From: Candidatus Omnitrophota bacterium
Lineage (GTDB): Bacteria > Omnitrophota > Gorgyraeia > Duberdicusellales > Duberdicusellaceae
Direction of reading: 5' to 3'
Assembly: GCA_003644445.1 (NCBI GenBank)
Contig: QNCG01000002.1
Location: 1-39,237 of the forward strand
Length of the DNA: 39,237 bases
Translations under genes and position numbers: made by a program
Part shown: positions 583-19,405 of the stretch, piece by piece
Layout: every line of letters begins with the position of its first letter
Position numbering within the stretch: position 1 is the stretch's first letter
Notes under the pieces: model-generated
Databases searched by the model: none
Seen by the model: only the letters and a program-made list of their open reading frames with translations
Told to the model about the DNA's origin: nothing

Positions 583-1755
583 TTAGATTTCCTGCCAGCG
601 TCTTAAATCAGCTATATAAGCCATAAAAGGAATCTGAGGATTATTATATAAACGTTGGTCATAGGTATAGTTTCTATGTCTATAAGCATTCAAATCAATA
701 ACAGTCCTTTCTCCTTCTCTACCCCGCACAGAGATTGCTCCATGAAAATCAAGGGTATCCTTGGAACCCTTCCTTCCCTCTGCTTTAACTGTACCTCCAT
801 CAGCTAAAAGAAAACCTTCTACAGTAAGAGAATCTGGAGCTTGATTAGCAATAATAACATCATTACCAGCAAACAGCCCTATCTGGATGCCAGAGTTTTT
901 ATACTCTATATTCCCAGTAATTATAATATTGCCACTAGCCACAATGAGTGTAGAGCCCTGGACATCTCCCTCAATATATACATCTCCCTCCACATAGACA
1001 AGGCCGTTTGAAGTGCCTAAGTTTTGCAAACTAATATCTCCGGCAATAGTAAAATCTCCCTGAATATACCTTCCTCCACTCTGAGCTAACGTCTTATAAC
1101 GCTGCAAGTCCACTCCCACAAAGGTTATAGGCTGACCTTTATACACATCTCCTTGGATAGTTATATTAGGGGTAGCTTGGGGATTTTGAGGGTCATAGCC
1201 TGTAAGATTCCTTAGATATATTACATCCCCGTTTACAGTTATTGTTCCTTGGCCAGGCTCAAAGCCAATATCTCTAGCTAATACGCTTGAGCCGATATCT
1301 GCTCCTTTTCCAATCCTCAAATCTCCCAAGGTAAAGATAAAAAAGAAGGTAGGGCTCTGAGTTATTGCTTCAGCAGAAATCTGCCGAGTTATCCTTCTGT
1401 TTGCATTTCTGCCTGTCCCTATTAAAGGAACTATTATCCAACTTCCTTGAGTATAACTATCATCTACACCATCCCCATCCACATCACCTACAGCAACATC
1501 ATAATAGCCCAGAGTATTTCCCTGAGAAGAAGTTAAAGACTGGTTAGTAAATCCTGCTCGCCATCCTATATCTCTTCTTAACTCAGCTAAGCTCAACTCT
1601 AAACCAGTCTCAGCAGCATAAAAGGCATAGAGAAAATTTATCCTATCCTGGACTAACCTCATCTGCATTTGAGAGCGTAATAGAGAAATACCTATAAATA
1701 TCCCTAAAAAAATCATAAGAAATACACTGGCTAAAAGAATAAAACTCTTCTTCAT
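583..1755 (-). CDS. PilX-like minor pseudopilin with a C-terminal beta-helix-like repeat domain
   Basis: An N-terminal single TM (ILLASVFLMIFLGIFIGISLL) is followed by AFYAAETGLE, the PilX_N-type signature. The C-terminal two thirds is full of short G-D/N-[VI]-x-[VI] repeats (GDVIYL, GDFTIAGDISL, GDVYIEGDVQG, GNIIITGNIEY, GNDVIIAN). The ATG lies 2 nt after the upstream stop. Confidence 0.7.
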   Translation of the reverse strand: MKKSFILLASVFLMIFLGIFIGISLLRSQMQMRLVQDRINFLYAFYAAETGLELSLAELRRDIGWRAGFTNQSLTSSQGNTLGYYDVAVGDVDGDGVDDSYTQGSWIIVPLIGTGRNANRRITRQISAEAITQSPTFFFIFTLGDLRIGKGADIGSSVLARDIGFEPGQGTITVNGDVIYLRNLTGYDPQNPQATPNITIQGDVYKGQPITFVGVDLQRYKTLAQSGGRYIQGDFTIAGDISLQNLGTSNGLVYVEGDVYIEGDVQGSTLIVASGNIIITGNIEYKNSGIQIGLFAGNDVIIANQAPDSLTVEGFLLADGGTVKAEGRKGSKDTLDFHGAISVRGREGERTVIDLNAYRHRNYTYDQRLYNNPQIPFMAYIADLRRWQEI

Positions 1756-1757
1756 CT

Positions 1758-2237
1758 TTAATTTCTCATTAATAGTTGTTGAGTATTACTAAAAATTACT
1801 CTTCTTCCTCCTATAACATCCTGGAAGAGGGCAAGCTGAAAAAATAGAGAACCGCTATCTATTTGAAAAAAAGAATTCGCTGAGTCTAAGTTCTCCGATA
1901 AAATATAATTCACACCTCCTTCTGTTCTTACTAACTGATTATTATTTATCTGATAAATTACCTGGCTCCTTCCTAAGAAAGCAGGATAAAAGATAGTAAG
2001 GTTTCCGCTCTGAGTGAGTCCTGTTCCTAAACTAAAACTGGAAGAAGGCAAGAGGTCTCTAGACAACTGCCTAAAAATCTCTTCAGACTGCTGATGAAGC
2101 TCAATCCTAGTAAGTTCAATCTCATAAGAAAGCCAATTAAGAAAGAGAAGGCCGTAGAAGAGAGCTATCCCTGCTCCAATAATTATCAAAACGACAATAA
2201 CTTCCGGAAGAGTAAAAGAATTTATCTTAAGTCTCAC
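1758..2237 (-). CDS. Pseudopilin (PulJ/PilW-like) with a degenerate prepilin signal
   Basis: MRLKINS-FTLPEVIVVLIIIGAGIALF has the class III signal pattern FTLxE plus a hydrophobic helix, but Ser rather than Gly at -1. The GTG start overlaps the upstream TAG by 1 nt. Confidence 0.7.
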   Translation of the reverse strand: MRLKINSFTLPEVIVVLIIIGAGIALFYGLLFLNWLSYEIELTRIELHQQSEEIFRQLSRDLLPSSSFSLGTGLTQSGNLTIFYPAFLGRSQVIYQINNNQLVRTEGGVNYILSENLDSANSFFQIDSGSLFFQLALFQDVIGGRRVIFSNTQQLLMRN

Positions 2238-4441
2238 TACATCTGACCCTTTTTAGTAAGGTGGATATCTCCTAAATCTAACTCTTGATTAGCCTTAAGA
2301 GTAAAGGGCTCCAGAATAACTGGCTCATACTCCTCAGTATGGGTTACTGCTATCAAATGCTTCCTTTCATTAGTCTGATAATAGGTATCATCAATTCCTT
2401 CAGGAGGCCAGGTCTCTATAACATGAGAAAACACAAAATCCCCTTCTCCATCGGTGTTAGTAACATAATTATAATGCCACTGAGTAAGAGAGTCGTATTT
2501 GTTGCCTGCATTATCATTATATACATCCAGCCATACTTCTGCTCCTTCTATAGGCTCATCATTAGCAACATCAAGAACTCTTCCTTTAATAGTGCCATAG
2601 CCTCGAGGATAGAGTCTAATAGTCTCATAGGTTGCAACCTCATTTTGCTGAATGTTTACCTCAGGCCTGTCCTTATAAGGCCAGTCTCCATCACTCTCAA
2701 AGGTATAATAGCCAGATTTCTCTGCTCTAACCCCATGAGAACCAATAGGTATGCTACAACCTTCTTCTTCAGGAAGACACTCTATCTTATAATACCCCAA
2801 ATCATTACTACTACTCTCTCTTCCACCTATCTCAACCCTTACTCCTTCTAAATAAAAATTTTCCTTTTCATCTTTTACATGCCCTTGAACATCTCCACAT
2901 TGGTCATCAGGAGGATAAGGGATGATAAAGTCTTGCTGAAGACTATCTCCCTGAAAAAGAGGCCCTACGCTTACCCAACCACTCTCTCTCCAGGCTGTCC
3001 CTCCTTGATTACAACAAGTCTGTTTAGGCATTCTTCTTCCTGCTGTCATTCTAATATAATAATTAGAAGTATCAGGAAAAAGCTCCTGAGCTGCAGGAAC
3101 AGAAACTTGATAATAACCATTATTATCGGTAGAACCTGCAGGATAAGGATACCATCTGGCGTTATCATGCCATCTTATATATATCTTAGCTCCAGAAAGA
3201 GGAGCATCTGTGCTATCACGAACATAACCAGAGATAGTAGCTAAAGGAACCTCGACCAAGACAATGTCTCCTAAATCCAAATTATCTCCAGGGTTAACAC
3301 AGAGTCTATCGGTAATGGCTGAGCCAATCCAAGGGTTATCACAAACAACAGAGCCATCTTCTCGGACTACTGCTGAAGACCAGCCCCGGTAATTATAGCT
3401 CTTTCCCCAACCCTGAGGGTCACAGAAATCACCGCAGTGCTGGTTATAACGGTAAGGATAACTCCAAGAACTACTTGTGCTACTGGTCACTAAGGTAAAA
3501 CACCTCGGCTGAGGGTCTTCAAAGTCAATCTTAAAATTAAAACTTCTTGGGCTATGCCACCACATATGGTCTCGGGCTACATAGCTTCCTTTTTCGTATA
3601 AAGAAACATACTGATATAAAGGCTTATCCTGGGGGTCTACAATCCTTCCTTTTATATGAGCAGGGGCAGGCTTGGGGTCTAAATAAATAGGAGGAAGAAT
3701 CACCTCCTCACCTTCAGGAACCCAAACAATATGGGCAGGGCTAGGATTATAATCCTGATATCCTTGAGCAGTTACGATAATCTGCCAGTTACCTGGAGAA
3801 AGTCTAAAAGCACCTGTATCAGGGTCAGAAAAGTCAAAGTTACATCCATCAGCATCTGGGCTACTCCTACTATAAATCACTGCCCTAACTCCTCCTGGGT
3901 CCTGAAAGATAAGGGTAATCTCAGCATTATTTATAAAGGCTTCGGTGTTTCTATCTTTTACTGAGCCTTTAATATTTCCCGGAAGAGGGGGTTGGGGCCG
4001 AGCAAGAAAAAAAACATTCCTAACCTCATTAAAGCCTTCACCTCTTCTTCTTGGCCACTGGACTGCTATCTCTATACGCTTAAGCTCAGTGGTAGTCCCA
4101 GCAGTAGAAACAGAAATCATCCGGGTAAAGAAATTCGAAGGATATTGAGAAGGGAGATAATTAGGTGTCAACCCAGTTGAACCCACTGGTATCCACTGAT
4201 TATTCTGAATCCAAGGCTCTGTCTCTAAGGTACTAAATACTCTATCTCCTCCTTCTCTTACTACTGCTCTTATTCTCTCAAAGTAATTAGTTAAAATATT
4301 CATAGCAGTAAACCTCTCCTGAGAATCAAGCTCAACTTGAGAAAGGATAGAGAAAGAAAAATAACTTCCTATGCCTATAAGGGCGAGGATAAGGATGCTT
4401 ACAATAACTTCAACTAAGGTAAAAGCTCTCTTCTCACCCAT
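2237..4441 (-). CDS. Giant (734 aa) pseudopilin: prepilin-type N-terminus plus about five CarboxypepD_reg-like beta-sandwich repeats; Cys-rich
   Basis: MGEKRA-FTLVEVIVSILILALIGIG is a prepilin-type N-terminus with Ala at -1. The motif [IV]xGxVxD..(P)[IL].GA.[IV] ... T[DN]..G.[YF] recurs five times (IKGSVKDRNTEAFINNAEI, IKGRIVDPQDKPL, ISGYVRDSTDAPLSGAKIYI..TDNNGYYQVSV, VQGHVKDEKENFYLEGVRVEI..NDLGYYKIE, IKGRVLDVANDEPIEGAEVWL..TDGEGDFVFS). It has more than 12 Cys. Confidence 0.8.
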   Translation of the reverse strand: MGEKRAFTLVEVIVSILILALIGIGSYFSFSILSQVELDSQERFTAMNILTNYFERIRAVVREGGDRVFSTLETEPWIQNNQWIPVGSTGLTPNYLPSQYPSNFFTRMISVSTAGTTTELKRIEIAVQWPRRRGEGFNEVRNVFFLARPQPPLPGNIKGSVKDRNTEAFINNAEITLIFQDPGGVRAVIYSRSSPDADGCNFDFSDPDTGAFRLSPGNWQIIVTAQGYQDYNPSPAHIVWVPEGEEVILPPIYLDPKPAPAHIKGRIVDPQDKPLYQYVSLYEKGSYVARDHMWWHSPRSFNFKIDFEDPQPRCFTLVTSSTSSSWSYPYRYNQHCGDFCDPQGWGKSYNYRGWSSAVVREDGSVVCDNPWIGSAITDRLCVNPGDNLDLGDIVLVEVPLATISGYVRDSTDAPLSGAKIYIRWHDNARWYPYPAGSTDNNGYYQVSVPAAQELFPDTSNYYIRMTAGRRMPKQTCCNQGGTAWRESGWVSVGPLFQGDSLQQDFIIPYPPDDQCGDVQGHVKDEKENFYLEGVRVEIGGRESSSNDLGYYKIECLPEEEGCSIPIGSHGVRAEKSGYYTFESDGDWPYKDRPEVNIQQNEVATYETIRLYPRGYGTIKGRVLDVANDEPIEGAEVWLDVYNDNAGNKYDSLTQWHYNYVTNTDGEGDFVFSHVIETWPPEGIDDTYYQTNERKHLIAVTHTEEYEPVILEPFTLKANQELDLGDIHLTKKGQM

Positions 4442-4472: not shown

Positions 4473-4502
4473 ATTATAACATTATTTATATCACTCGGGC
4501 AA
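4473..4502 (-). promoter_or_regulatory. Possible internal sigma70-type promoter for the three pseudopilin genes
   Basis: The minus strand reads TTGCCC (4502..4497), N18, TATAAT (4478..4473), inside the 125-nt gap after the secretin gene. GGGAGG/GAAGG lies upstream of the ATG at 4441. Confidence 0.3.
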
Positions 4503-4566: not shown

Positions 4567-5985
4567 TTATCTTACTATTTGAGGAGTTACGCTAATAATT
4601 ATCTCTTTGTCATCAGAAGTGGTCTTCTCGTATTTAAAAAGATTACCAAATATAGGAACCTGAGAAAGTAAAGGGACTTTATAGATATTCTTCTTATCTT
4701 CTTGACTGATTAAGCCTCCTAAAATAAAAGGCTGACTATCCCTTACTCTTACATAGGCTGTAGCCTCCCTTGTTCGTATCCAAGGATATTGGTCTTCAGG
4801 GCCTCGCCAAGTATAGATGTAACTTACCTCTGGCTCAATCTTAACTACCACAAAATCTTCCTCAATAATAGAAGGAGTAATCTTTAACCTTATTCCTGCC
4901 TCAGCAAATCTTACCTCAGTATTAGCTACCCCCCCAGTAACCGTAGTAATAGTATAAGGAACTTTGTCTCCAATAAATATCTCAGCCTCCTTCTCATTCA
5001 TAGTAGTTATCCGAGGGTTAGACAAAACCTTAGCTTTATTTTCAGTCTCAAGCATCTTTATTATAGTATTAAATTGGATAGGGGTCCTCTCAAACTTAAA
5101 TATTTTCAAAAGAGGGCCTGAGGAGGAAGGTATAGTATCTTCTCCTATATCTCCCAAGGGCCTCTTTGTCTCTTGAAAAGATAAGGTAATAGCATCTGAC
5201 CAGTCAATTCCCAGTTCTCTTAAGGCGTCTGCATCTATCTCCAAAACCTGGGTAGCTAATAAAACCTGGGGCTGAGGAATATCCAACTTAGCAATAATTT
5301 TCTCTGCTTCTTCAATTTGAGAAGGAGTCCCTATAATAACCAAAGAATTCATCTCCTTATTTGAAGTTACTGACTCTACAATATTTTTAAGAAGATCTGC
5401 TACGCTCTCAGCTCTTACGTTCTCTAATTTAATCACCTTATTAGTCAAAGCTCTCTGAACTATCTTCTCTTTGGTAGCAATAAAAAGAGAATTGCCTATC
5501 TTTGCTGAACCCAAACCATAAGCATTAAATATAAGCTCTAAAGCCTCATCGATAGTAACATTCTTAACATGTAAGTCTATCTTTTTGCCTTTAAGAGAGG
5601 GGTCAACTACTATATTAAAGCCTCCTCCTTCTCCAATTACCCTTAGAACATCTTCAATATTAGCCTGAGTAAAATCTAAATCTATCCTTTTTATAACTTC
5701 TTTAGGTTCCTCCTCTTTTTTTACTTCACCCTGAGGTTCAGAGGCTGATGGAGGCATCTTAGCTTGAGACGAACTCTGGGAGGAAACTGTTTTCGTAGGA
5801 GGAACGAACTTCTTAGCCGGAGCAAGACCAAGCTCCTCCTCTAATCTCTCTTCTACTTTCTTCTTACCTAAAATCTCTTCTTTAAATTCGTCAGTATTAG
5901 GGAAGGACTCTAAAGTTTTAGCATAAAGAGTAGAAAGGATAAAAATCAAACTCACTAACCAACAATAAATACTAATTTTTTTCAT
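4567..5985 (-). CDS. pilQ: Secretin (PilQ/GspD family), copy 1
   Basis: It has a signal peptide and a low-complexity S/P/E/K linker. The C-terminal secretin domain reads VLSNPRITTMNEKEAEIFIGDKVPY ... GGLISQEDKKNIYKVPLLSQVPIFGNLFKYEKT. Confidence 0.9.
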   Translation of the reverse strand: MKKISIYCWLVSLIFILSTLYAKTLESFPNTDEFKEEILGKKKVEERLEEELGLAPAKKFVPPTKTVSSQSSSQAKMPPSASEPQGEVKKEEEPKEVIKRIDLDFTQANIEDVLRVIGEGGGFNIVVDPSLKGKKIDLHVKNVTIDEALELIFNAYGLGSAKIGNSLFIATKEKIVQRALTNKVIKLENVRAESVADLLKNIVESVTSNKEMNSLVIIGTPSQIEEAEKIIAKLDIPQPQVLLATQVLEIDADALRELGIDWSDAITLSFQETKRPLGDIGEDTIPSSSGPLLKIFKFERTPIQFNTIIKMLETENKAKVLSNPRITTMNEKEAEIFIGDKVPYTITTVTGGVANTEVRFAEAGIRLKITPSIIEEDFVVVKIEPEVSYIYTWRGPEDQYPWIRTREATAYVRVRDSQPFILGGLISQEDKKNIYKVPLLSQVPIFGNLFKYEKTTSDDKEIIISVTPQIVR

Positions 5986-6434
5986 TTTTTTACCTCCATC
6001 TTCAGGATTATTTCCTTGCCTCCTCTATCTAAAATGACCTTATCTTTATCTATCTTCTCTACTTCAGCCTTTCCAATCTTATCTTTTACTCTGACTATAT
6101 ATGTCTGCTGAGGAGCTTTGATTAAGGCTAAGGGAGTGGTTGAGAAAAATATTCCTACCAACTTCAAATCTAACTCCTCCTCAATAGCTATCTCTTCAGC
6201 CTCAAAAAATTTCCCTATTAGGGGCCTGAAAGGGTCTCTTTCTAAGGAAATCTCTACTGGCTCTGACCAAATAATTGCCTCAGCCAAATTTAAATCTTGA
6301 ATAGCTGGAGTCTCCTTCTTTTTAGGAAAAAGAAAAGCCAGTTTCTTTTTTGAGAAAGGAAAAAACCTTCCGATATCCTTACATCCGGAAAAAGTAAGCA
6401 AAATCACCAAAAAATATACCAGCCTCTTTCTCAT
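5982..6434 (-). CDS. pilP: PilP-like lipoprotein, copy 1
   Basis: It has the lipobox LTFSGC and the RDPFRPL motif typical of PilP. It overlaps the secretin gene by 4 nt (ATGA). The C-terminus GKEIILKME is shared with the paralogue at 35579..35941. Confidence 0.75.
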   Translation of the reverse strand: MRKRLVYFLVILLTFSGCKDIGRFFPFSKKKLAFLFPKKKETPAIQDLNLAEAIIWSEPVEISLERDPFRPLIGKFFEAEEIAIEEELDLKLVGIFFSTTPLALIKAPQQTYIVRVKDKIGKAEVEKIDKDKVILDRGGKEIILKMEVKK

Positions 6435-6447
6435 CTCTCTTTGGCTT

Positions 6448-7029
6448 CTAAAGTCTTAAACTGTAAAGGTTCAAAGAAAAACTACACTCTAAGAGAGGGT
6501 ATTTTCTTGTCTTTATCTTAACCTCGGTTAAACTTAGAAGTTGTCTATATCTTTCTAAGGCTAATAAGAAATCTACTAAATTAGCAAACTTTCCCTCCAC
6601 CCTCAGGCTTAGAGGGGTAAACAACAAAGTAGGCTTCTCTTTTTCCTGAGTTTTTTTTGTCATTCCTCTCCGGGAAATCTCCTCTTCTGCTTCTACTCTC
6701 CGGGTAGGTTGAGTTTTTATATCCCTAATCTTTATATTAAATCTCTTAGAAAGAGCAGAAACTCCTTCTAAGAAAAGAGGGATATCTTTATCTTTAAAGA
6801 GGATACCTTCAAAATGCTGTTTGTCTTTCTTATATTTAGCTAAAAGCTCATCTAAGTTTTCTAACTCTTCTGCCAGGGCTTTAACCTTCTGTCTATGGAG
6901 GGAAAGTTTTTTTATTGAATCCTGATATTTAGCAAAGAAAAAATAGACTACTCCTAAACCAGCTAAAGTAAATATAATACACACCCCCCCTGCTAATATT
7001 TTGAATTTCTTGCTCGAATATTTATTCAT
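6448..7029 (-). CDS. pilO: PilO-like bitopic protein, copy 1
   Basis: It has one N-terminal TM, then a coiled-coil segment (KKLSLHRQKVKALAEELENLDELLAKYKK). It sits between the pilMN and pilP genes and overlaps the upstream gene by 4 nt. Confidence 0.65.
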   Translation of the reverse strand: MNKYSSKKFKILAGGVCIIFTLAGLGVVYFFFAKYQDSIKKLSLHRQKVKALAEELENLDELLAKYKKDKQHFEGILFKDKDIPLFLEGVSALSKRFNIKIRDIKTQPTRRVEAEEEISRRGMTKKTQEKEKPTLLFTPLSLRVEGKFANLVDFLLALERYRQLLSLTEVKIKTRKYPLLECSFSLNLYSLRL

Positions 7030-8513
7030 TTATTATTTAGGGTTATTTCCGATTTTAAACTTAGACTTGCTTCTATCCCAAACTCTTTAATATCTTTATC
7101 TTCTATCTTTCTTTCTCTTACAAAATTAAACTTAACATTTCTTAATAACTCTATATTCTTTAAAGACCTTATAAGAGAAGCTACAGAGTCTAAACTAAGA
7201 CTGTAGCCTTCCAGTTTAATTAAGCTTGCCTTCTCTGCCCTGAAAGATTTAAGCCATACTTCTTTAGGAAGTGCTTTCCCAATTTCTAAAAAAACTTTGG
7301 ACCAAGAGACCCTATTTAACTTAGAGATAAAATTTGCCTGCTTTAGAATCTCATCTCTTAAGGTTAAGTACTTCTCCTTCTCCATCTTAAGAGCCTGTGT
7401 CCTTCGCCGAAGAAAGTTTACCTTCTGAGAGAGCTTCTTTATCTTTCTCTTCAGGTTTTTTTCAGAATTTATAAAGTAAAAGCTTAACATACCAACCAAA
7501 ACTCCTATAAACACTATATAAGTTATAGAAGAAATTAACACTTTCCGCAAAAATTCAGGGGTCTTTTCTCTACTCCAAATTCTTTCCAAGTCAAACTCAT
7601 GCTTTATCCCAAAGGTTCTCAAGCTGGTAGCAATTAGAGAAAGATATTTATAATTAAACTTCTCCCTCTCAGCCTCCTTAAAGAACTTTATCTTACAAGG
7701 AAGTCTGAGCTCAGATACTTCCCTTCCTGAATAGGAGCTGAAAACTTTATCTAAATCTTTAACTTTCTGGTTATCCCAGATAAGAAATATGTCCTTAACT
7801 ATCTTCCGGGTGGCAGTTTCATAAAACTTAAAGGCTCTTTTAACTTCTTCTGCCCAGACTTTGAAGGAGGCCTGATTAATACCTCCTTCCTTCTGACAGA
7901 TATCTTCTAACCCCGAATTAGCAACATAAATTATACTTAACTCTTCTTTCTCAAAAACAAGAACATAGCTTAGGCTATTCTCTACCAGAATTAAGCCTCT
8001 TGGTTCTGACTGGGGCTGGCTATAAAACAGGTTTAAAATGTTTAAAGGCACAATATCAAAACCCAAAACATTAGCTCTACATTCTCTTAAAGCCTGAAGA
8101 GAAAAATCAAAAAAATCTCTGGAAAAGGCAAGATATAAAACTCTCACTTTCTTTTTATCTTCCGTAGAATAAACATTGTAAGTGTAAAGATAATTTCCCT
8201 GAGAAAAATAAGGGAGTTTTTCTATCTCATTTATTACTATCTGGTTAATCTCTGAAGAAGGTACAGGGGGTAGGACTAATTCTTGAAAGATAGCATCTTT
8301 ATCCCAGAAAGAAAGATAGAGATTTTTTAGAGAAATACCTTTTTTACGGAAAAATTCTTTAATAAGAAAAGCAAAGGCTTTTGTATCTTTATTTTTAAAG
8401 ATATCCTCAGGGATAGTAAGTGTATCCAGCTGGAAGATTAAGAGAGTATTGGCTCTCTTCTCCAGCCGGGCACACCTTAATTCTCTGGGGCCAATCTCTA
8501 AGCAGACTTTCAT
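7026..8513 (-). CDS. PilM-PilN fusion protein (actin-like ATPase fold, TM, PilN-like periplasmic part)
   Basis: The ~320-aa N-terminal part resembles PilM. It is followed by a single TM (VLISSITYIVFIGVLVGMLSFYF), a coiled coil, and a ~130-aa domain in the position of PilN. No separate pilN exists in this operon. Confidence 0.8.
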   Translation of the reverse strand: MKVCLEIGPRELRCARLEKRANTLLIFQLDTLTIPEDIFKNKDTKAFAFLIKEFFRKKGISLKNLYLSFWDKDAIFQELVLPPVPSSEINQIVINEIEKLPYFSQGNYLYTYNVYSTEDKKKVRVLYLAFSRDFFDFSLQALRECRANVLGFDIVPLNILNLFYSQPQSEPRGLILVENSLSYVLVFEKEELSIIYVANSGLEDICQKEGGINQASFKVWAEEVKRAFKFYETATRKIVKDIFLIWDNQKVKDLDKVFSSYSGREVSELRLPCKIKFFKEAEREKFNYKYLSLIATSLRTFGIKHEFDLERIWSREKTPEFLRKVLISSITYIVFIGVLVGMLSFYFINSEKNLKRKIKKLSQKVNFLRRRTQALKMEKEKYLTLRDEILKQANFISKLNRVSWSKVFLEIGKALPKEVWLKSFRAEKASLIKLEGYSLSLDSVASLIRSLKNIELLRNVKFNFVRERKIEDKDIKEFGIEASLSLKSEITLNNK

Positions 8514-8539: not shown

Positions 8540-8908
8540 TTAATTATGTTGATCCGGCCAATTTCCTGGAGCAAAATGTCCAGCCCTATCTGCTCTGTAG
8601 CCATTAGTGGCGTTACCCGTAAGAGTATAGTTTACTCCAAACGGACATACCGGTAAATCACCTAATCCATCTCCATCCTCATCAGGAAAAAAGGGTTGTA
8701 ACTCACTCATACTATCACAGGCAGCCCAATTCCTGTTCTCAGAAAAACATAACTGAGCTGCAGTATCAATGGAACGGATATTGGAAGCACACTGTTTGGT
8801 ATTTGCCTGTCTTATAGCTCTCAAAGCATTAGGAAGAATTATAGCAATAAGTATCCCGATTATCACCAACACCACCAGAAGCTCAACCAAAGTAAAACCT
8901 CTCTTCAT
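8540..8908 (-). CDS. Major pilin / GspG-like pseudopilin (122 aa)
   Basis: MKRG-FTLVELLVVLVIIGILIAIILPNALRAIRQAN is a canonical class III signal with Gly at -1 and Glu at +5. A strong SD (AGGAGGTG) lies 4 nt upstream of the ATG at 8908. It has four Cys and an acidic DEDGDGLGD loop. The ORF-track start at 9001 is rejected. Confidence 0.9.
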   Translation of the reverse strand: MKRGFTLVELLVVLVIIGILIAIILPNALRAIRQANTKQCASNIRSIDTAAQLCFSENRNWAACDSMSELQPFFPDEDGDGLGDLPVCPFGVNYTLTGNATNGYRADRAGHFAPGNWPDQHN

Positions 8909-8958
8909 TTTACACCTCCTTTCTCTCTTTTTTAAACTAATAAATCCACCTCCCTCAA

Positions 8959-8992
8959 GAAAAGCCCTTTTATTATAACATAAAGGCTTTTC
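8959..8992 (-). promoter_or_regulatory. Imperfect inverted repeat enclosing a TATAAT hexamer upstream of the pilin gene
   Basis: The plus strand reads GAAAAGCCCTTTT (8959..8971) ... AAAGGCTTTTC (8982..8992). The minus-strand TATAAT at 8977..8972 lies in the loop. This is either a pilin promoter or a pilC-pilin attenuator hairpin. Confidence 0.3.
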
Positions 8993-9038
8993 CCAAAACA
9001 ATACTCAGAGCTGTTTAAATAGCCCCTTAAGAAAACAT

Positions 9039-10244
9039 TTACATCCCTGAACCAATCTTACCCCAAAGAGTGAATATCGGTAAATACATTGATAAAAGCA
9101 CAAACATTACCATTCCCCCTACCATCACTATTAAGATTGGCTCAAGAAGAGTAAGAAACTTATTAAGCCGGTAATCTAACTCTTCTTCCAAATGAAGAGC
9201 AATCCTATCCAGCATCTCTACCAGAGTTCCACTTTCCTCGCCAATAGAAATCATCTCAGTTATAAAAGGAGGAAAATATTTGGTCTCCTCAAGAGAAGTA
9301 CCGATTCCCTTGCCCTGAATAACCCTCTCTAAGACATAATCCAATTTCTCTTCCATTACTTTATTGGCACAACTTCTCTTAGCAGTTTCTATGCTCTCAG
9401 TCAAGGGAAGACCCCCGCCCACCAACAAAGAAAAAGAATGGACAAATCTTCCTAAGGAAGCAGTAAAGACGAGTTTTCCTAATAAGGGGAGTTTTAACTT
9501 CCAGTAATCTATCCGGTATCTTCCTTTTTCTGTAGAATAACACTTCTTATAAAGAAAAAATCCCAAAATTATTAAAACCGGGCCCAACCACCAGAATTTT
9601 ACTGAGAAGTCTGAAACATCCATAAGAATACGGGTTAAAAAAGGAAGACTCACATTAATCTTAGCAAAAACTTTTTTAAAGACTGGGACAACAAAAAGCA
9701 TCATTGCTCCCACTGCCAAAATAGCAATTATTATCACAATTAAGGGATAAGTAATAGCTCTTTTTAGTTTCATTAGGTTTTCTCTTCTTTTATCTAAATA
9801 GTCTCTTATATCTTTCAATATCTTAGGAAGTGTTCCTCCTCTTTCAGCTACCTTTAGCAAGCTGGGATATATCTCAGGAAAAATATTAGGGAACCTCTCA
9901 AAAGCTCCGGAAAGAGTCCCCCCCTCAGAAAGTCTATTTCTGACTTCACTTATCACTAATTGAAAAACCTTATCTTCAGCCTGTCTCCAAAGAATCTCTA
10001 AAGCAGAAATGATAGGGATTCCTGCAGCAATCAGAGAACCAAACTGATGAGTGAACATAATAAGAGTATCAAGGCTTACCTTGCGAGAGAAAATCCTCTT
10101 AACTTCCTTATAAGAAGAGACTCGGACTACAAAGTAGCCTTTGTCAGAAAGACTCTTAATCAAAGAACTTTTATCGGTAGCCTCTAAAATTCCCTCCAGA
10201 AGCCTTCCTTCTTTGTCTCTTATCTTATATGCGAATTTAGGCAT
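9039..10244 (-). CDS. pilC: Pilus/T2SS inner-membrane platform protein (PilC/GspF family)
   Basis: The 401-aa protein has a duplicated GspF-type domain and three hydrophobic segments. Its ATG lies 2 nt after the pilB stop. Confidence 0.92.
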   Translation of the reverse strand: MPKFAYKIRDKEGRLLEGILEATDKSSLIKSLSDKGYFVVRVSSYKEVKRIFSRKVSLDTLIMFTHQFGSLIAAGIPIISALEILWRQAEDKVFQLVISEVRNRLSEGGTLSGAFERFPNIFPEIYPSLLKVAERGGTLPKILKDIRDYLDKRRENLMKLKRAITYPLIVIIIAILAVGAMMLFVVPVFKKVFAKINVSLPFLTRILMDVSDFSVKFWWLGPVLIILGFFLYKKCYSTEKGRYRIDYWKLKLPLLGKLVFTASLGRFVHSFSLLVGGGLPLTESIETAKRSCANKVMEEKLDYVLERVIQGKGIGTSLEETKYFPPFITEMISIGEESGTLVEMLDRIALHLEEELDYRLNKFLTLLEPILIVMVGGMVMFVLLSMYLPIFTLWGKIGSGM

Positions 10245-10246
10245 AA

Positions 10247-11947
10247 TTAGATTTTCTTGACAAAAGCTACTCTCATAACTTCCTCAATAGAAGTTATCTT
10301 CTGAAGAGCTTTTACCACTCCACTTTGTTGGAGAGTGTGCATACCTTCTCTTATAGCTAAATCAGTTACCTCTTTTTCAGTAGCTCTTTTCAAAATTAAC
10401 TCTTTCATCTGAGGAGTAATGCGAACTATCTCAAATATCCCTGTACGCCGATAATAACCTAAATTTTTACATCTTTCACAACCCGAAGATTTAGCAAACT
10501 TTACTTTCTTAGGCTCAGGTATATATTCCGAAATCTCTTTCATTAAATCCTCGGAAGGGGTGTAATCTTGACGACAGTAAGGACAAAGTTTTCTTACTAA
10601 TCGTTGAGCTATGATTCCTATTAAAGAGGCACTGATTAGAAAAGGTTCTACATTCATATCTAACAGCCTGTTTATTGCTCCCGGAGCGTTATTAGTATGA
10701 AGAGTGGATAAAACTAAGTGTCCAGTCAAAGCCGCCTGTATAGCAATCTCAGCAGTTTCTAAGTCTCTTATTTCACCAATCATAATAACGTCAGGGTCCT
10801 GCCTCAAGATGTGACGCATACCTGTAGCAAAGGTATAACCTGCCCGGACATTTACTGCAGTCTGATTTATCCCTTCTAATTCATACTCCACTGGATCTTC
10901 TACGGTGACAATATTCCGAGTAGCATCGTTTAATTTATTAAGAATAGAATAAAGCGTGGTGGTCTTTCCTGAACCAGTGGGTCCGGTTACTAAAATCATC
11001 CCATAAGGCTGATAAATTAAACTTTCGATAATAGAACGCTCATTTTCATCTAATCCCAGCTTATCCAGAGAAATAAGAATACTTTTCTTATCAAGAATCC
11101 TCAGAACCACCTTTTCCCCAAATATATCAGGCAGAGTAGAAACTCTTATGTCGTACTCTCTGTCTCTTATTCCAATAACCATCCTTCCATCTTGAGGCTT
11201 TCTTCTTTCAGCAATGTCCATCCCGCTCATTATCTTTACCCGAGAAATTACTGCTGGCTGCAATCCTTTAGGGATAGTAACTTTCTCATACAAAATCCCG
11301 TCTATCCGATATCTAATCCGCAACTTATCCTTTTGAGGCTCAAAGTGTACATCAGATGCTTCCTGCTTAATAGCATCGGTAATCACTGAGTTAACCAACC
11401 TTACTATTGGTGCTTCCTTAACCACCGCCTCCAGTTCCTGGAGGGGTATATCTTCTAGCCCAGTCTCTTCCTTAGAAGTCACTATCTCTTGAATAGCCTG
11501 GTGAGCTTCTTGGAGAGGGCCAAAATATTTATTTATACATTCTTCTATCTCCTTAGAGGTAGCTAAAACTGGCTTTATTTTATACCCACTTAAATATTTC
11601 AACTCCTGGATAACTCTTATATCCAAAGGGTTAGTAACTGCTACAATAAGGTTTTTTCCTTCTAACTTTAAAGGAAATACTTTGTATTCCCGGATTTTTT
11701 CATAAGGAAAGATACGAAGAAGATTCTCATCTACAGGATAAGATTTCAAATTTACCTGTTCTAAGTCAAATTGATAAGCTAAGGCGTTTATTATTGCTTT
11801 CTCCGAGACTAAACCTTTTTCAACCAATATTTTCCCTAAAGGTTTTTTTGTCTTCTTCTGAGTCTCTAAAGCTTCATAAAGTCGTTCCTTATTAAGCAAA
11901 CCTTGTCTCACTAAAAATTCTCCCAATCTATCTTTCTCTCCGGCCAT
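10247..11947 (-). CDS. pilB: Pilus extension ATPase (PilB/GspE/MshE family) with tandem MshEN-type N-terminal motifs
   Basis: It has Walker A GPTGSGKTT and the tetracysteine CPYC...CERC. The N-terminus reads RLGEFLVRQGLLNKERLYEALETQ, then KKTKK, then PLGKILVEKGLVSEKAIINALAYQ. Confidence 0.95.
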   Translation of the reverse strand: MAGEKDRLGEFLVRQGLLNKERLYEALETQKKTKKPLGKILVEKGLVSEKAIINALAYQFDLEQVNLKSYPVDENLLRIFPYEKIREYKVFPLKLEGKNLIVAVTNPLDIRVIQELKYLSGYKIKPVLATSKEIEECINKYFGPLQEAHQAIQEIVTSKEETGLEDIPLQELEAVVKEAPIVRLVNSVITDAIKQEASDVHFEPQKDKLRIRYRIDGILYEKVTIPKGLQPAVISRVKIMSGMDIAERRKPQDGRMVIGIRDREYDIRVSTLPDIFGEKVVLRILDKKSILISLDKLGLDENERSIIESLIYQPYGMILVTGPTGSGKTTTLYSILNKLNDATRNIVTVEDPVEYELEGINQTAVNVRAGYTFATGMRHILRQDPDVIMIGEIRDLETAEIAIQAALTGHLVLSTLHTNNAPGAINRLLDMNVEPFLISASLIGIIAQRLVRKLCPYCRQDYTPSEDLMKEISEYIPEPKKVKFAKSSGCERCKNLGYYRRTGIFEIVRITPQMKELILKRATEKEVTDLAIREGMHTLQQSGVVKALQKITSIEEVMRVAFVKKI

Positions 11948-11953
11948 TTAAGA

Positions 11954-12307
11954 TTATTCAGGTCTATTTAGCTTTTCTCTCCAAGCCTTATAAACATAGT
12001 CTAAAATCTCGCTCTTTGCCTCTTTATCAATCTCTTTAATCTTTATCCCTACTTCCCAGTTGGCATCATTAGCTCTACTCCAAGCAACCTGGCCTTTAAC
12101 TTCCACTGGCTCTTTCCTTCCCGGAATGTATATCTTCAGCTTAATATCTGCTTCTTCCCCCAGGCTAAAATTATGCAAGATTAACCTTAAACCCTCCCGA
12201 GAAAAATCTTTAGTAACTCCTTCCTGGAGAGAATCTATATTAGCCTTAATTACTACCTCAGCTTTTAAAGGAATATCAAATCTAATAAATTTTCTCCTCT
12301 CCTCCAT
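11954..12307 (-). CDS. PilZ-domain protein (predicted c-di-GMP receptor)
   Basis: It carries the RxxxR motif (ERRKFIRFD) and the D/NxSxxG motif (DFSREGLRL) in a 117-aa single-domain protein. Confidence 0.85.
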   Translation of the reverse strand: MEERRKFIRFDIPLKAEVVIKANIDSLQEGVTKDFSREGLRLILHNFSLGEEADIKLKIYIPGRKEPVEVKGQVAWSRANDANWEVGIKIKEIDKEAKSEILDYVYKAWREKLNRPE

Positions 12308-12788: not shown

Positions 12789-13565
12789 CTATTCAATCAC
12801 TTCTATCTCCAAGGGAGAATTTACTATTATTTCTGGACCATTATACTCTCTTATTCTTCCGGTTACTTCTACAACTTTACCCCGGTAAAAAACCTCAGGA
12901 GTAATTCCCTTCTGGTAAAAATAATTAAAACTATTTCTAAAGATAACTGCTGTGAAATCTTTCTTATAATCTTTCCCAAAATTAAGAAATATGGCTTTGC
13001 CCGAATTATAAGTAGATAAAACTCTGCCTCTTATTGTTCTAATCTGGCCTATAAAATTTTTAGCTTCTTCAGGCTTTATAACTTGGTAAGCTCCCCATAA
13101 ACCCTTCTTACTTTGGCGGGCTTCTCTCTGAGCTTTAACAAATTCTTCTATATACTTAACATTAGGAGGATAAGTATACAAAACAGAAAAACCTTCCTCT
13201 AAGAGCCTTTTATTAAGAAATAATTCCTTCTCTTTTTCTTTTATAAAACAGTAGCCTAAGAGTCGGCCGTACTTATCTCTTTTGTCTACATCAAATTCAA
13301 TCCGGGCGTATTTTCCTTCAGCTAACTTCCGAGTGAATTCTTTTGCTTCTTCAGCTAAAGGAGCAGGTTCATAAACAAAACCTTTAAAAGTTTTTTTCCT
13401 CAGTTCTGGAGTATCTATCCCGATGAGCCTTAAATGGCTTCTGTCTTCTAAGACCAAAGTATCTCCATCGATAACCTTTATTATTTTTATATGAGAATAA
13501 TCAGGAGGCTGAGAACAGGAAAGAAAAAACAGAAAAAGAAATAGAAGAAATTTCTTAACTTTCAA
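12789..13565 (-). CDS. Lipoprotein thermonuclease (SNase family) with a C-terminal OB-fold domain
   Basis: It has the lipobox FFLSCSQ and the SNase core VIDGDTLVLED...LRLIGIDTPE...DKYGRLLGY. The ~90-aa C-terminal tail is OB-fold-like (IRGRVLSTYNSGKAIFLNFG...FTAVIF...GKVVEVTGRIREYNGPEI). Confidence 0.88.
   Translation of the reverse strand: MKVKKFLLFLFLFFLSCSQPPDYSHIKIIKVIDGDTLVLEDRSHLRLIGIDTPELRKKTFKGFVYEPAPLAEEAKEFTRKLAEGKYARIEFDVDKRDKYGRLLGYCFIKEKEKELFLNKRLLEEGFSVLYTYPPNVKYIEEFVKAQREARQSKKGLWGAYQVIKPEEAKNFIGQIRTIRGRVLSTYNSGKAIFLNFGKDYKKDFTAVIFRNSFNYFYQKGITPEVFYRGKVVEVTGRIREYNGPEIIVNSPLEIEVIE
12888..12979. repeat. Direct repeat copy B (inside the nuclease 3' region)
   Basis: Partner of 1..92; 12888..12963 is identical to 1..76. 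Confidence 0.9.
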
Positions 13566-17667: not shown

Positions 17668-17890
17668 CTTCTTTCAAAACCTCTTTTAATTCCTCAATTA
17701 ACTTAAGAGTTTCTTGGGCAGATTTTTTTTCTACTTTACCAATAGCAAAACCAGCATGGACTAAAACATAATCTCCTATTCTTGCCTTTTCTATCAAGCC
17801 TAAAGAGACTTCCCTTAGCACTCCTCCAAAATCTACTAAGGCTTTATCCTTCTCTATCTTCTTAATTTTTCCGGGAACTGCCAAACACAT
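17657..17890 (-). CDS. hypC: Hydrogenase maturation chaperone HypC
   Basis: It has the N-terminal MCLAVPGKI with the essential Cys2, and is 77 aa long. Confidence 0.93.
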   Translation of the reverse strand: MCLAVPGKIKKIEKDKALVDFGGVLREVSLGLIEKARIGDYVLVHAGFAIGKVEKKSAQETLKLIEELKEVLKEDEK

Positions 17891-17919
17891 TTGATTAATC
17901 TGGTTGTACTCTCTTCTAT

Positions 17920-18990: not shown

Positions 18991-18993
18991 ATT

Positions 18994-19032: not shown

Positions 19033-19037
19033 TAGTT

Positions 19038-19379: not shown

Positions 19380-19405
19380 CTTAGATTGTAATTAGATTAC
19401 AAAAA

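What the first reader, a model, noticed from the sequence alone, without database searches (positions are those of the whole stretch)
2237..4441. 734-aa cysteine-rich giant pseudopilin built from CarboxypepD_reg-like repeats
The protein starts with a class III pilin-type N-terminus (KRA-FTLVEVIVSILILALIG). It then carries about 700 aa of extracellular sequence with about five copies of the rigid beta-sandwich motif [IV]xGxVxD...GA.[IV]...T[DN]..G.Y. It also has more than 12 Cys and aromatic/Trp-rich stretches (WSYPYRYNQHCGDFCDPQGWGKSYNYRGW). Ordinary minor pilins are 150-250 aa. A pilin-anchored array of adhesin-type domains looks like a tip adhesin or capture device presented by the pilus. 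It could serve attachment to a surface, a host cell or a polymer. The -1 residue is Ala here and Ser in the next pseudopilin (INS-FTLPEV), whereas prepilin peptidases prefer Gly. No prepilin peptidase (PilD) gene is in the window.
Basis: partly seen in the sequence, partly recalled or inferred. Interest (0 to 1): 0.7.

Follow-up and report, generated by a model that had tools for sequence, protein, structure and literature searches.

The report
Giant modular minor pilin of Omnitrophota
This gene encodes a real but unusually large pilus subunit: a normal pilin "handle" fused to five rigid beta-sandwich domains. It is a fixed part of a pilus or secretion operon in the tiny, uncultured Omnitrophota bacteria, and it is an unstudied member of the already catalogued class of "modular pilins".

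Summary
ORF 2237-4441 (-) encodes a 734-aa protein with a prepilin-type N-terminus (MGEKRA|FTLVEV; Pfam N_methyl above its cut-off). AlphaFold2 predicts a 62-residue helix, a 3-stranded sheet and five CarboxypepD_reg-type beta-sandwiches. The protein has 11 Cys, not more than 12.

It is not an orphan. An exhaustive search found about 90 near-full-length relatives. Of these, 85/94 keep the pilin N-terminus (+1 Phe 80/85, +5 Glu 82/85). The -1 residue is Ala as often as Gly (34 vs 37), so Ala is a lineage habit.

In all 11 other distinct loci examined the gene occupies the same slot: (PilZ)-PilB-PilC-major pilin-PilM/N fusion-PilO-PilP-secretin-[this]-[~160-aa pilin]-[~400-aa pilin lacking Glu5]. 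Four of the eight species-representative genomes found are labelled Omnitrophota. Four are labelled Planctomycetia/Planctomycetales.

Foldseek matches only tandem CnaB/Ig stalks of Gram-positive adhesins, with no enzyme fold.

It is most likely a tip-located modular minor pilin that forms a GspI-J-K-like cap with its two neighbours and displays an acidic, aromatic-rich, disulfide-stapled stalk for binding. Whether the machine is a pilus or a T2SS-like pseudopilus is unresolved.

The N_methyl + PF13620 architecture is already listed as the third most common modular-pilin type (Raynaud et al. 2021). This is therefore a new member of a known kind.

The parts
2237..4441 (-). Gene for the 734-aa modular minor pilin (stop codon at 2237-2239)
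   Evidence: ORF list. Pfam N_methyl + CarboxypepD_reg. Full-length homologues at 31-44% identity.
4424..4441 (-). Short basic leader peptide MGEKRA (aa 1-6); predicted prepilin-peptidase cleavage after Ala6
   Evidence: Sequence. Family leaders are 2-33 aa, median 10. The -1 residue is G in 37, A in 34 and S in 7 members. Cleavage itself is inferred.
4232..4423 (-). Mature N-terminus FTLVE... and the long alpha1 helix (aa 7-70), the filament-assembly interface
   Evidence: N_methyl and TIGR02532 score above their cut-offs. AF2 predicts a helix at 9/10-70 with pLDDT of about 70-95. A profile search of the PDB hits alpha1N of type IV pilins at E 1.6e-4 to 3.7e-4.
3977..4231 (-). Variable alpha-beta loop and 3-stranded antiparallel sheet of the pilin module (aa 71-155), ending in the conserved linker RPxxPLPGN
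   Evidence: AF2 predicts strands 106-113, 120-130 and 137-147. The module alone gave pLDDT 89.2 and pTM 0.75. K121, W129, P149 and P154 are conserved.
3668..3976 (-). Beta-sandwich domain 1 (aa ~156-258)
   Evidence: Repeat start IKGSVKD at aa 157. All-beta in AF2. Boundaries are approximate.
3242..3667 (-). Beta-sandwich domain 2 (aa ~259-400), carrying a ~60-aa Cys/aromatic-rich insertion
   Evidence: Repeat start IKGRIVD at aa 263. AF2. The C314-C381 pair co-occurs across the family (phi 0.95).
3305..3487 (-). Insertion loop aa ~319-379 (…YPYRYNQHCGDFCDPQGWGKSYNYRGWSSAVV…C.NPW.GS); candidate ligand-binding site
   Evidence: Most conserved 20-aa windows in the 16-sequence alignment, at 0.78 and 0.68. 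The GWSS motif is 91-99% conserved over 89 representatives. The binding role is inferred.
2906..3241 (-). Beta-sandwich domain 3 (aa ~401-512), the best Pfam CarboxypepD_reg match, with vicinal Cys476-Cys477
   Evidence: Pfam best stretch 402-450. C476/C515 (phi 0.95) and C477/C555 (phi 1.0) co-occur across 89 representatives.
2606..2905 (-). Beta-sandwich domain 4 (aa ~513-612), probably stapled to domain 3 by two disulfides
   Evidence: Repeat start VQGHVKD at aa 518. AF2 pLDDT of about 86-95. Cys co-occurrence.
2240..2605 (-). Beta-sandwich domain 5 (aa ~613-734) with the conserved ExWPP motif; the C-terminus has no sorting signal
   Evidence: Repeat start IKGRVLD at aa 618. E676, W678 and P679 are 91-96% conserved. 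TIGR04134 partial hit at 617-669.
1758..2237 (-). Gene for the 159-aa minor pilin (INS|FTLPEV). Its start overlaps the stop codon of the 734-aa gene by 1 nt.
   Evidence: ORF. N_methyl and TIGR02532. Junction ATGTAGTGAGAC. Syntenic in every locus.
583..1755 (-). Gene for a 390-aa pilin-like protein lacking Glu5 (KKS|FILLA), with beta-solenoid signals; a candidate GspK/PilX/ComZ-like cap subunit
   Evidence: N-termini of homologues read G|[FYLV]xLLxS. Pfam FapA in 8/9 and MinC_C in 7/9 homologues. Weak ComZ 6qvi hit at E 0.083. Syntenic.
4473..4502 (-). Promoter-like site TTGCCC-18-(TG)TATAAT in the 125-nt gap between the secretin gene and the 734-aa gene
   Evidence: Consensus scan, 10/12 matches. 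This is a hint only.
4567..5985 (-). Secretin (472 aa)
   Evidence: Pfam Secretin 7.6e-45, plus STN and Secretin_N.
5982..8513 (-). PilP/GspC-like lipoprotein (5982-6434), PilO (6448-7029) and a PilM-PilN fusion (7026-8513)
   Evidence: Pfam T2SSC 7.3e-7, PilO 5.9e-7 and PilN 1.4e-12.
8540..9001 (-). Major pilin or pseudopilin. The likely real start is Met at nt 8908, giving MKRG|FTLVELLVV.
   Evidence: N_methyl 2.7e-9. GspG, ComGC and PilA N-terminal hits.
9039..12307 (-). Platform protein PilC/GspF (9039-10244), assembly ATPase PilB/GspE with an MshE-type c-di-GMP motif (10247-11947) and a PilZ protein (11954-12307)
   Evidence: Pfam T2SSF, T2SSE and PilZ. NCBIfam.

Best explanation
The gene encodes a modular minor pilin of a type IV filament (T4F) machine that is conserved in Omnitrophota-like genomes.

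Proposed mechanism, all inferred:
- The short basic leader is removed by a PilD-type prepilin peptidase encoded elsewhere in the genome.
- The mature FTLVE... helix anchors the protein in the inner membrane.
- The helix then docks with the two co-translated neighbours, the 159-aa pilin and the 390-aa Glu5-less pilin. Together they form a GspI-J-K / PilV-W-X-like complex that primes and caps the filament built from the major pilin.
- At the tip, the roughly 580-aa C-terminal extension projects from the filament end through the secretin. The extension is five transthyretin/CnaB-like beta-sandwiches, acidic (net charge -37), 12% aromatic and braced by three or four disulfides.
- There it binds an external ligand, most plausibly a glycan or surface polymer of a host cell or particle. 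The invariant GWSS loop of domain 2 is the best candidate for the binding site.
- In effect the extension takes the place that PilY1 holds in classical T4aP.

Shown: the sequence features, the fold class, family conservation, operon synteny and the Cys co-variation.
For: - Pilin N-terminus: it scores above the curated cut-offs. It is conserved in 85/94 family representatives, with F+1 in 80/85 and E+5 in 82/85.
- Pilin module: AF2 gives a 62-residue helix and a 3-stranded sheet. The module alone scores pLDDT 89.2 and pTM 0.75.
- Extension: the full-length model (pLDDT 82.8) is all-beta after residue 155. Foldseek's top hits are tandem CnaB/Ig stalks of adhesins and sortase pilins (6fwv at 1.3e-12, 1d2p, 7vcr, 4oq1), with no enzyme. 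CarboxypepD_reg is found in 16/16 members.
- Synteny: gene order is strictly collinear in all 11 other distinct loci, at 29-44% identity.
- Coupling: the 734-aa and 159-aa genes overlap by 1 nt, and a 2-nt gap precedes the 390-aa gene.
- Cap subunit: the 390-aa neighbour lacks Glu5, as GspK/PilX-type cap subunits do (the GspK property is from established knowledge).
- No PilY1: no Pfam match to the PilY1/PilC family was returned for any of the 20 window proteins scanned.
- Extracytoplasmic location: Cys pairs 314/381, 476/515 and 477/555 co-occur with phi 0.95-1.0 across 89 representatives, which indicates disulfides.
- Peptidase: a bifunctional PilD lies 6.7 kb from the orthologous operon in GCA_044225175.1.
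- Precedent: Raynaud et al. 2021 show that modular pilins are polymerised through their pilin module. They list IPR012902-PF13620 (66 proteins) as a predicted carbohydrate-binding type.
Against: - Gly at -1, the canonical PilD determinant, is replaced by Ala.
- Foldseek with the isolated pilin module found no significant pilin match (best E 0.05). The PilV and GspJ equivalog HMMs score far below their cut-offs, and the GspI model gave no hit at E <= 0.1. The I/V-like role therefore rests on topology and gene position alone.
- Conservation is uniform across all domains (0.38-0.42). There is no hypervariable head of the kind common in host-contact adhesins.
- CarboxypepD_reg/CnaB domains are often inert spacers, so a binding function is not implied by the fold.
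- No retraction ATPase is in the operon.
- The machine cannot be typed as a pilus or a pseudopilus.
- No experimental data exist for any member of the family.
Confidence: 0.65

Rival explanations
1. The operon is a T2SS-like secretion machine, and the protein is the GspI-position subunit of a short periplasmic pseudopilus. Its beta-sandwich array acts inside or just through the secretin as a piston head, substrate-docking platform or gate plug. It is not a surface adhesin.
For: - Apart from GspH and the peptidase, the gene set matches E-F-G-L(M/N fusion)-M-C-D-I-J-K.
- PilC scores best against GspF (338 vs 307 bits). PilP and PilO hit only the GspC and GspM NCBIfam models, weakly. Pfam T2SSC hits at 7.3e-7.
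- The major pilin's best NCBIfam hit is GspG.
- PilM and PilN are fused, as in GspL. A separate canonical pilMNOPQ set exists at 34057-38029.
- No PilT is in the operon.
- Uniform conservation across the domains fits a structural role.
Against: - The ATPase scores higher against PilB than GspE (634 vs 592 bits).
- Pfam assigns PilN and PilO rather than T2SSL and T2SSM.
- No candidate exoprotein is conserved beside the operon.
- A 580-aa five-domain array is far larger than anything known on a T2SS tip.
- All equivalog scores are below their cut-offs, so typing is undecided in either direction.
Confidence: 0.22
2. The N-terminus is not processed, because -1 is not Gly. The protein is then a bitopic inner-membrane protein whose beta-sandwich array stays in the periplasm. 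It would serve as a scaffold or spacer of the trans-envelope machine rather than as a filament subunit.
For: - Ala, Ser, Asn or Thr at -1 occurs in more than half of the family.
- Conservation is uniform across the domains.
- The protein is an invariant component of the operon.
Against: - Glu5 and Phe1 are kept in 96% and 94% of members. These are needed for filament incorporation and methylation, and they would not be needed in a plain signal anchor.
- The major pilin of two orthologous operons also has Ala at -1, so the lineage's peptidase evidently accepts Ala.
- From established knowledge, Ala and Ser at -1 are tolerated by archaeal class III peptidases and partly by PilD.
Confidence: 0.08
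3. The filament is a competence (DNA-uptake) pilus, and the large pilin is its DNA receptor.
For: - An SNase+OB-fold lipoprotein is encoded 0.5 kb upstream of the operon.
- DprA and PilD lie near the orthologous operon in L004.
- The 390-aa neighbour weakly resembles the Thermus DNA-binding tip protein ComZ (E 0.083).
Against: - The extension is strongly acidic (net -37, pI 4.6), and none of its five beta-sandwich domains (D1-D5) has a net positive charge.
- No DNA-binding domain was detected.
- The ComZ similarity is not significant, and it concerns the neighbour rather than this protein.
Confidence: 0.05

Closest known systems
Modular type IV pilins (Streptococcus sanguinis PilB/PilC; catalogue of Raynaud et al. 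2021, PMC8179133), specifically the IPR012902-PF13620 architecture (66 proteins in their Dataset S1)
   Same: An N-terminal pilin module is joined by a short linker to domains that are not specific to pilus biology. PF13620 is the grafted domain. A tip location and a ligand-binding role are predicted.
   Different: - This protein has five tandem beta-sandwiches, not one.
- It has a conserved Cys/aromatic insertion and inter-domain disulfides.
- It is a diderm system with a secretin.
- The gene is an invariant core member of the operon.
- No member with PF13620 has been studied experimentally.
GspI-GspJ-GspK pseudopilus tip complex of T2SS / PilV-PilW-PilX (+PilY1) priming complex of T4aP
   Same: Three consecutive, translationally coupled minor-pilin genes. 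The last one lacks Glu5 and is enlarged. They lie in an operon with an ATPase, a platform protein, alignment proteins and a secretin.
   Different: - No significant sequence or Foldseek match to GspI or PilV.
- The enlarged subunit here is the first of the three as well as the last.
- There is no GspH/FimU-like fourth pilin in the operon and no PilY1.
CofB / TcpB of type IVb pili (minor pilin with C-terminal beta-repeat and beta-sandwich domains)
   Same: A large minor pilin whose pilin module is followed by beta-rich domains. It initiates assembly and sits at the tip.
   Different: - The system type is different (T4b).
- CofB works as a trimer and binds a secreted partner.
- No sequence similarity was detected, and neither CofB nor TcpB is among the 50 Foldseek hits listed.
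CnaB/prealbumin-like stalk domains of Gram-positive MSCRAMMs and sortase pilins (Cna B repeats 1d2p, B. anthracis TIE 6fwv, PitA 7vcr, SpaA 5f44)
   Same: These are the best structural matches (Foldseek E 1e-12 to 1e-6). They are tandem rigid beta-sandwiches that hold a binding region away from the cell.
   Different: - The similarity is in fold only (7-14% identity).
- There is no C-terminal cell-wall sorting signal: the protein ends ...DIHLTKKGQM with no hydrophobic tail.
- Disulfides, rather than isopeptide bonds, are the likely braces.
- Attachment is through a type IV pilin helix, not sortase.
Thermus thermophilus ComZ (beta-solenoid tip pilin). This is relevant to the 390-aa neighbour, not to the 734-aa protein.
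   Same: A pilin-like N-terminus, an AFYAAEAGL motif and beta-solenoid signals. It is encoded after PilV/PilW-like pilins.
   Different: The match is only weak (E 0.083), and the structure of the 390-aa protein was not predicted here.

Membership tests
Type IV pilin / pseudopilin (class III signal peptide; Pfam PF07963 N_methyl, TIGR02532) | N-terminal motif scores above the curated thresholds | tested here: met
   PF07963 scores 22.6 bits against 21.2. TIGR02532 scores 17.4 against 16.3. All 13 homologue N-termini tested match N_methyl.
Type IV pilin / pseudopilin | Gly at -1 of the cleavage site | tested here: not met
   This protein has Ala at -1. Across the family the counts are G 37, A 34, S 7, N 2 and others 5, out of 85. 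The major pilins of L001 and L005 also have Ala.
Type IV pilin / pseudopilin | Phe (or another hydrophobic residue) at +1, Glu at +5, then about 20 hydrophobic residues | tested here: met
   The mature N-terminus reads FTLVEVIVSILILALIGIGSYF. Across the family, F+1 is in 80/85 and E+5 in 82/85.
Type IV pilin / pseudopilin | Lollipop fold: a long alpha1 helix packed on an antiparallel beta-sheet | tested here: inconclusive
   AF2 gives helix 9-70 and three strands, with pLDDT 89.2 and pTM 0.75. Foldseek against the PDB found no significant pilin match (best E 0.05). The profile search matches only alpha1N of pilins.
Type IV pilin / pseudopilin | Encoded with a T4F assembly machinery (ATPase, platform, secretin, major pilin) | tested here: met
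   The gene order is collinear in all 11 other distinct loci.
Type IV pilin / pseudopilin | Cleavage and N-methylation by a prepilin peptidase; incorporation into filaments | not testable with these tools
   No PilD is in the window. A PilD with A24_N_bact + Peptidase_A24 lies near the orthologous operon in L004.
Modular pilin (sensu Raynaud et al. 2021) | An N-terminal IPR012902 pilin module plus one or more domains not specific to T4P biology | tested here: met
   N_methyl + PF13620/PF13715. The architecture IPR012902-PF13620 is listed with 66 proteins.
CarboxypepD_reg-like domain (PF13620) | HMM score above the gathering threshold; 7-stranded prealbumin-like sandwich | tested here: met
   80.3 bits against 32.3. 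Found in 16/16 members. The AF2 model is all-beta and Foldseek matches CnaB/prealbumin-like domains.
GspI (TIGR01707, Pfam T2SSI) / PilV (TIGR02523) | Equivalog HMM above its cut-off | tested here: not met
   PilV scores 16.3 bits against 52.2, over the helix only. There is no GspI hit at E <= 0.1. The protein is treated as a positional analogue only.
PilY1/PilC tip adhesin | C-terminal beta-propeller (IPR008707 / Pfam Neisseria_PilC); not itself a pilin | tested here: not met
   No such Pfam hit in this protein or in any of the other 19 window proteins scanned. The protein does have a pilin N-terminus.
Sortase-assembled pilin / MSCRAMM | C-terminal cell-wall sorting signal (LPXTG followed by a hydrophobic tail) | tested here: not met
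   The C-terminus reads ...LGDIHLTKKGQM, with no sorting signal. The resemblance is in fold only.

The most novel reading that the evidence does not exclude
Omnitrophota (host-dependent nanobacteria) carry a lineage-specific type IV filament machine. Its cap is built from two enlarged pilins and needs no PilY1. One is a GspI/PilV-position pilin bearing a disulfide-stapled five-domain stalk. The other is a ComZ-like beta-solenoid pilin. This cap would be the device with which the cells latch onto host cells or polymers. The cognate prepilin peptidase would have relaxed -1 specificity, accepting Ala as readily as Gly.
Probability: 0.3. Interest if true: 0.5.

Novelty: new member of a known kind. 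Interest (0 to 1): 0.33.

Why it matters
Omnitrophota are abundant, uncultured ultra-small bacteria thought to live as predators or parasites, and type IV pili are proposed as their attachment organelles (PMC10066038). This protein is an invariant, highly elaborated subunit of one such machine, so it is a concrete candidate for the host- or substrate-contact molecule. It could be expressed, used for binding screens, or used as an antigen to label cells.

For pilus biology, it adds a well-populated multi-domain example to the modular-pilin class (about 90 clusters at 50% identity). It also shows a lineage in which Ala at -1 is as common as Gly. The gain is incremental rather than conceptual.

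Tried and rejected
- **Foldseek of the isolated pilin module.** No significant hit was found (best E 0.05, a methyltransferase). It neither confirms nor refutes a pilin fold. PDB minor pilins mostly lack alpha1N, which hampers this test.
- **Profile search of the pilin module against PDB sequences.** Only the alpha1N helices of major pilins match. There is no GspI or PilV.
- **phmmer of the full protein against the PDB.** Only a chance hit at E 0.17.
- **Typing the machine with NCBIfam equivalogs.** PilB and GspE, and PilC and GspF, score almost equally, and all are below their cut-offs. Typing is undecided.
- **DNA-receptor idea.** Rejected for this protein because of its net charge of -37.
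- **Enzyme or peptidase idea.** Rejected because there is no catalytic domain and no enzyme fold.
- **Literature.** No paper combines 'minor pilin' with CarboxypepD_reg. Two Omnitrophota genomics papers mention T4aP or secretion clusters but not this protein.
- **Taxonomy of distant family members.** Only one of the ten clusters looked up carried a source name. Distribution therefore rests on 8 genome loci and the names.
- **Model coordinates.** Cys co-occurrence was used instead.


Full report
**1. Observation**

The ORF at 2237..4441 (minus strand) encodes 734 aa from an ATG that follows a GGGAGG ribosome-binding site. The N-terminus MGEKRA|FTLVEVIVSILILALIG matches the prepilin cleavage/methylation motif above both curated thresholds. 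Pfam N_methyl scores 22.6 bits against 21.2, and TIGR02532 scores 17.4 against 16.3.

Five units opening with [IV]xGx[IV]x[DN] start at residues 157, 263, 403, 518 and 618. Pfam CarboxypepD_reg scores 80.3 bits against a cut-off of 32.3.

The only factual slip is the Cys count. There are 11 Cys, not more than 12, and 19 Trp. The next ORF (1758..2237) is a 159-aa pilin with Ser at -1, as stated.

No prepilin peptidase is in the window. A tblastn with an Omnitrophota PilD gives only chance hits, with a best E of 3.6. The ORFs scanned with Pfam contain none.

**2. A conserved family**

A word-indexed search found 17 proteins at 31-44% identity over the full length. Every named one comes from Candidatus Omnitrophica/Omnitrophota MAGs.

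An exhaustive profile search of 1.84 billion cluster representatives found 390 proteins at E <= 1e-30. Of the 160 sequences retrieved are 600-870 aa long. The other strong hits are giant proteins with dozens of CarboxypepD_reg repeats.

Of those 94, 85 carry a class III N-terminus. The remaining 9 are N-terminally truncated. Position +1 is Phe in 80/85 and +5 is Glu in 82/85. Position -1 is Gly in 37, Ala in 34, Ser in 7, Asn in 2 and another residue in 5.

The major pilin of two orthologous operons (L001, L005) also has Ala at -1. Ala at -1 is therefore a lineage habit, not an anomaly of this gene.

A scan of one genome per GTDB species returned 8 loci. Four are labelled Candidatus Omnitrophota. 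Four are labelled 'uncultured Planctomycetia/Planctomycetales' MAGs, and I could not check that labelling.

**3. Genomic context**

All genes in the window's left third are on the minus strand and form one cluster:

| Gene | Coordinates |
|---|---|
| PilZ | 11954-12307 |
| PilB/GspE ATPase, with an MshE-type c-di-GMP motif | 10247-11947 |
| PilC/GspF | 9039-10244 |
| Major pilin (MKRG\|FTLVELLVV) | 8540-9001 |
| PilM-PilN fusion | 7026-8513 |
| PilO | 6448-7029 |
| PilP/GspC-like lipoprotein | 5982-6434 |
| Secretin | 4567-5985 |
| The 734-aa pilin | 2237-4441 |
| The 159-aa pilin | 1758-2237 |
| A 390-aa protein | 583-1755 |

A tblastn of these eleven proteins against all fetched loci shows exactly the same order in all 11 other distinct loci. 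Some contigs are cut short, and PilZ is missing in one genome. Identities are 50-65% for PilB, 51-60% for the secretin and 29-44% for the 734-aa protein.

The 734-aa and 159-aa genes overlap by one nucleotide (TAGTG). Two nucleotides separate the 159-aa and 390-aa genes.

The 390-aa protein and its homologues start with G/S|[FYLV]xLLxS, which is a pilin-like N-terminus without Glu5. Missing Glu5 is a property of cap subunits such as GspK and PilX (established knowledge). The protein also gives beta-solenoid signals, with Pfam FapA in 8/9 homologues and MinC_C in 7/9. Its best, non-significant PDB profile match is Thermus ComZ at E 0.083.

In the 820-kb contig of GCA_044225175.1, a PilD with A24_N_bact + Peptidase_A24 lies 6.7 kb downstream of the operon, near DprA. 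The peptidase therefore exists in the lineage but outside the operon.

**4. Structure**

AlphaFold2 on the 16-sequence alignment gave a mean pLDDT of 82.8 and a pTM of 0.49, so the domains are confident but their mutual arrangement is not. The model has a helix at 10-70 and strands at 106-113, 120-130 and 137-147. Everything after residue 155 is beta.

The pilin module modelled alone gave pLDDT 89.2 and pTM 0.75 with the same topology. That topology is the canonical pilin order: alpha1, then an alpha-beta loop, then an antiparallel sheet.

Foldseek of the full model against the PDB returns tandem CnaB/Ig-like stalks. They include B. anthracis TIE (1.3e-12), Cna B1B2, PitA, a streptococcal ancillary pilin, SpaA and BcpA, all at 7-14% identity. 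No enzyme appears.

Foldseek of the isolated pilin module gave nothing significant (best E 0.05). The PDB profile search matched only the alpha1N helices of type IV pilins, at E 1.6e-4 to 3.7e-4. The PilV and GspJ equivalog HMMs score far below their cut-offs, and the GspI model gave no hit at E <= 0.1. I therefore call the module a pilin module, not a GspI or PilV member.

**5. Features of the extension**

The extension (156-734) is acidic, with a net charge of -37 and pI 4.6, and 12% of its residues are aromatic.

Across 89 aligned family representatives, Cys presence co-varies in pairs. The phi values are 0.95 for 314/381, 0.95 for 476/515 and 1.0 for 477/555. This points to disulfides and therefore to an extracytoplasmic protein. 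Two of the pairs would staple domain 3 to domain 4.

The most conserved stretch in the close clade is the roughly 60-aa insertion in domain 2, …CGDFCDPxGWGKSYNYRGWSSAVV…. Its GWSS core is 91-99% conserved family-wide, as is ExWPP in domain 5. Otherwise conservation is even across the modules, at 0.38-0.42.

**6. Mechanism**

The best-supported reading has these parts:

- The protein is a modular minor pilin.
- Its pilin module assembles with the two co-translated neighbours into a cap and priming complex analogous to GspI-J-K or PilV-W-X.
- The five-domain stalk is presented at the filament tip, taking the place of the missing PilY1.
- The stalk binds an external ligand, plausibly a glycan or surface polymer.

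What is shown is the sequence features, fold class, conservation, synteny and Cys covariation. Cleavage, tip location, complex formation and ligand binding are all inferred.

The main rival is that the machine is a T2SS-like pseudopilus and the array works in or at the secretin. The gene set reads equally well as E-F-G-L-M-C-D-I-J-K, and PilC scores best against GspF. PilM and PilN are fused as in GspL, while a separate unfused pilMNOPQ set lies at 34057-38029. No PilT is in the operon. Against this, the ATPase scores higher against PilB, and Pfam assigns PilN and PilO. All equivalog scores are below their cut-offs, so the type is undecided.

Two rivals are less likely. The first is an uncleaved signal anchor, which is disfavoured because Phe1 and Glu5 are conserved and the major pilin also uses Ala at -1. 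The second is a DNA receptor, which is disfavoured by the strong negative charge.

**7. Comparison and novelty**

Raynaud et al. 2021 (PMC8179133) defined modular pilins. They showed for S. sanguinis PilB that such proteins polymerise through the pilin module, and they catalogued more than 1,200 of them. IPR012902-PF13620 is the third most frequent architecture, with 66 proteins, and they predict it to bind carbohydrate.

Seymour et al. 2023 (PMC10066038) report that T4aP clusters are near-universal in Omnitrophota and propose a role in host attachment. They do not describe this protein.

The kind is therefore known. This specific family has not been characterised. It has five domains, disulfide staples and a fixed slot in an 11-gene operon, and it is paired with a solenoid-bearing pilin that lacks Glu5. 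NCBI annotates its members only as 'hypothetical' or 'prepilin-type N-terminal cleavage/methylation domain-containing protein'.

**Verdict:** a real feature whose interpretation is largely right, a new member of a known kind, and of modest interest.

Noticed in passing
window 583-1755 (-): A 390-aa protein with a pilin-like N-terminus lacking Glu5 (KKS|FILLA). It has an AFYAAETGLE motif and beta-solenoid signals (Pfam FapA in 8/9 homologues, MinC_C in 7/9). Its best PDB profile hit is Thermus ComZ 6qvi at E 0.083, which is not significant. It is a likely GspK/PilX/ComZ-like cap pilin.
   Followed up: partly
window 34057-38029 (-): A second, separate cluster of pilM (unfused), pilN, pilO, a T2SSB/PilP-like gene and a secretin, preceded by a TPR protein (38121-39167). 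The genome therefore has at least two type IV filament envelopes. No pilin genes for this second set are in the window.
   Followed up: partly
window 12789-13565 (-): A predicted lipoprotein with a staphylococcal-nuclease domain plus an OB-fold (Pfam SNase 3.3e-20, tRNA_anti-codon 1.3e-6). It is encoded 0.5 kb upstream of the PilZ-PilB operon and could be an extracellular or periplasmic nuclease linked to DNA scavenging.
   Followed up: no
window 10247-12307 (-): The assembly ATPase carries an MshE-type c-di-GMP-binding N-terminal motif (NF053729, 65 bits against a cut-off of 38). A stand-alone PilZ protein is encoded immediately upstream, and it is syntenic in most related loci. This suggests c-di-GMP control of the machine.
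   Followed up: partly
window 4473-4502 (-): A promoter-like TTGCCC-18-(TG)TATAAT lies in the 125-nt gap between the secretin gene and the 734-aa pilin gene. The three minor-pilin genes may have their own promoter. This is a consensus match only.
   Followed up: no
L001:5204-5569 and L005:5404-5772 (major pilins of orthologous operons): The major pilins themselves have Ala, not Gly, at -1 (KKA|FTMIELLVV, RKA|FTLVEILVV). This implies a prepilin peptidase with relaxed -1 specificity in this lineage.
   Followed up: partly
L004:18828-19820 (GCA_044225175.1): A bifunctional-type prepilin peptidase (A24_N_bact + Peptidase_A24, with CxxC...CxxC and GGGDVK motifs) lies 6.7 kb downstream of the orthologous operon, close to dprA.
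   Followed up: partly
L001:14978-17926 (-): Near the orthologous operon in Omnitrophica 4484_70.1 there is a 982-aa protein combining T2SS-T3SS_pil_N with CarboxypepD_reg/SdrD_B repeats, and next to it another small pilin. Further beta-sandwich-array proteins are linked to pilus loci in this lineage. That genome also has two paralogous copies of the whole operon (P0002, P0010).
   Followed up: no
window 15621-31113 (-): By eye from their N-terminal sequences only, the ORFs here look like hydrogenase maturation genes (HypE/HypD-like) and a long Mrp/Mbh-type membrane-bound hydrogenase or complex-I-like gene set. This was not examined further.
   Followed up: no
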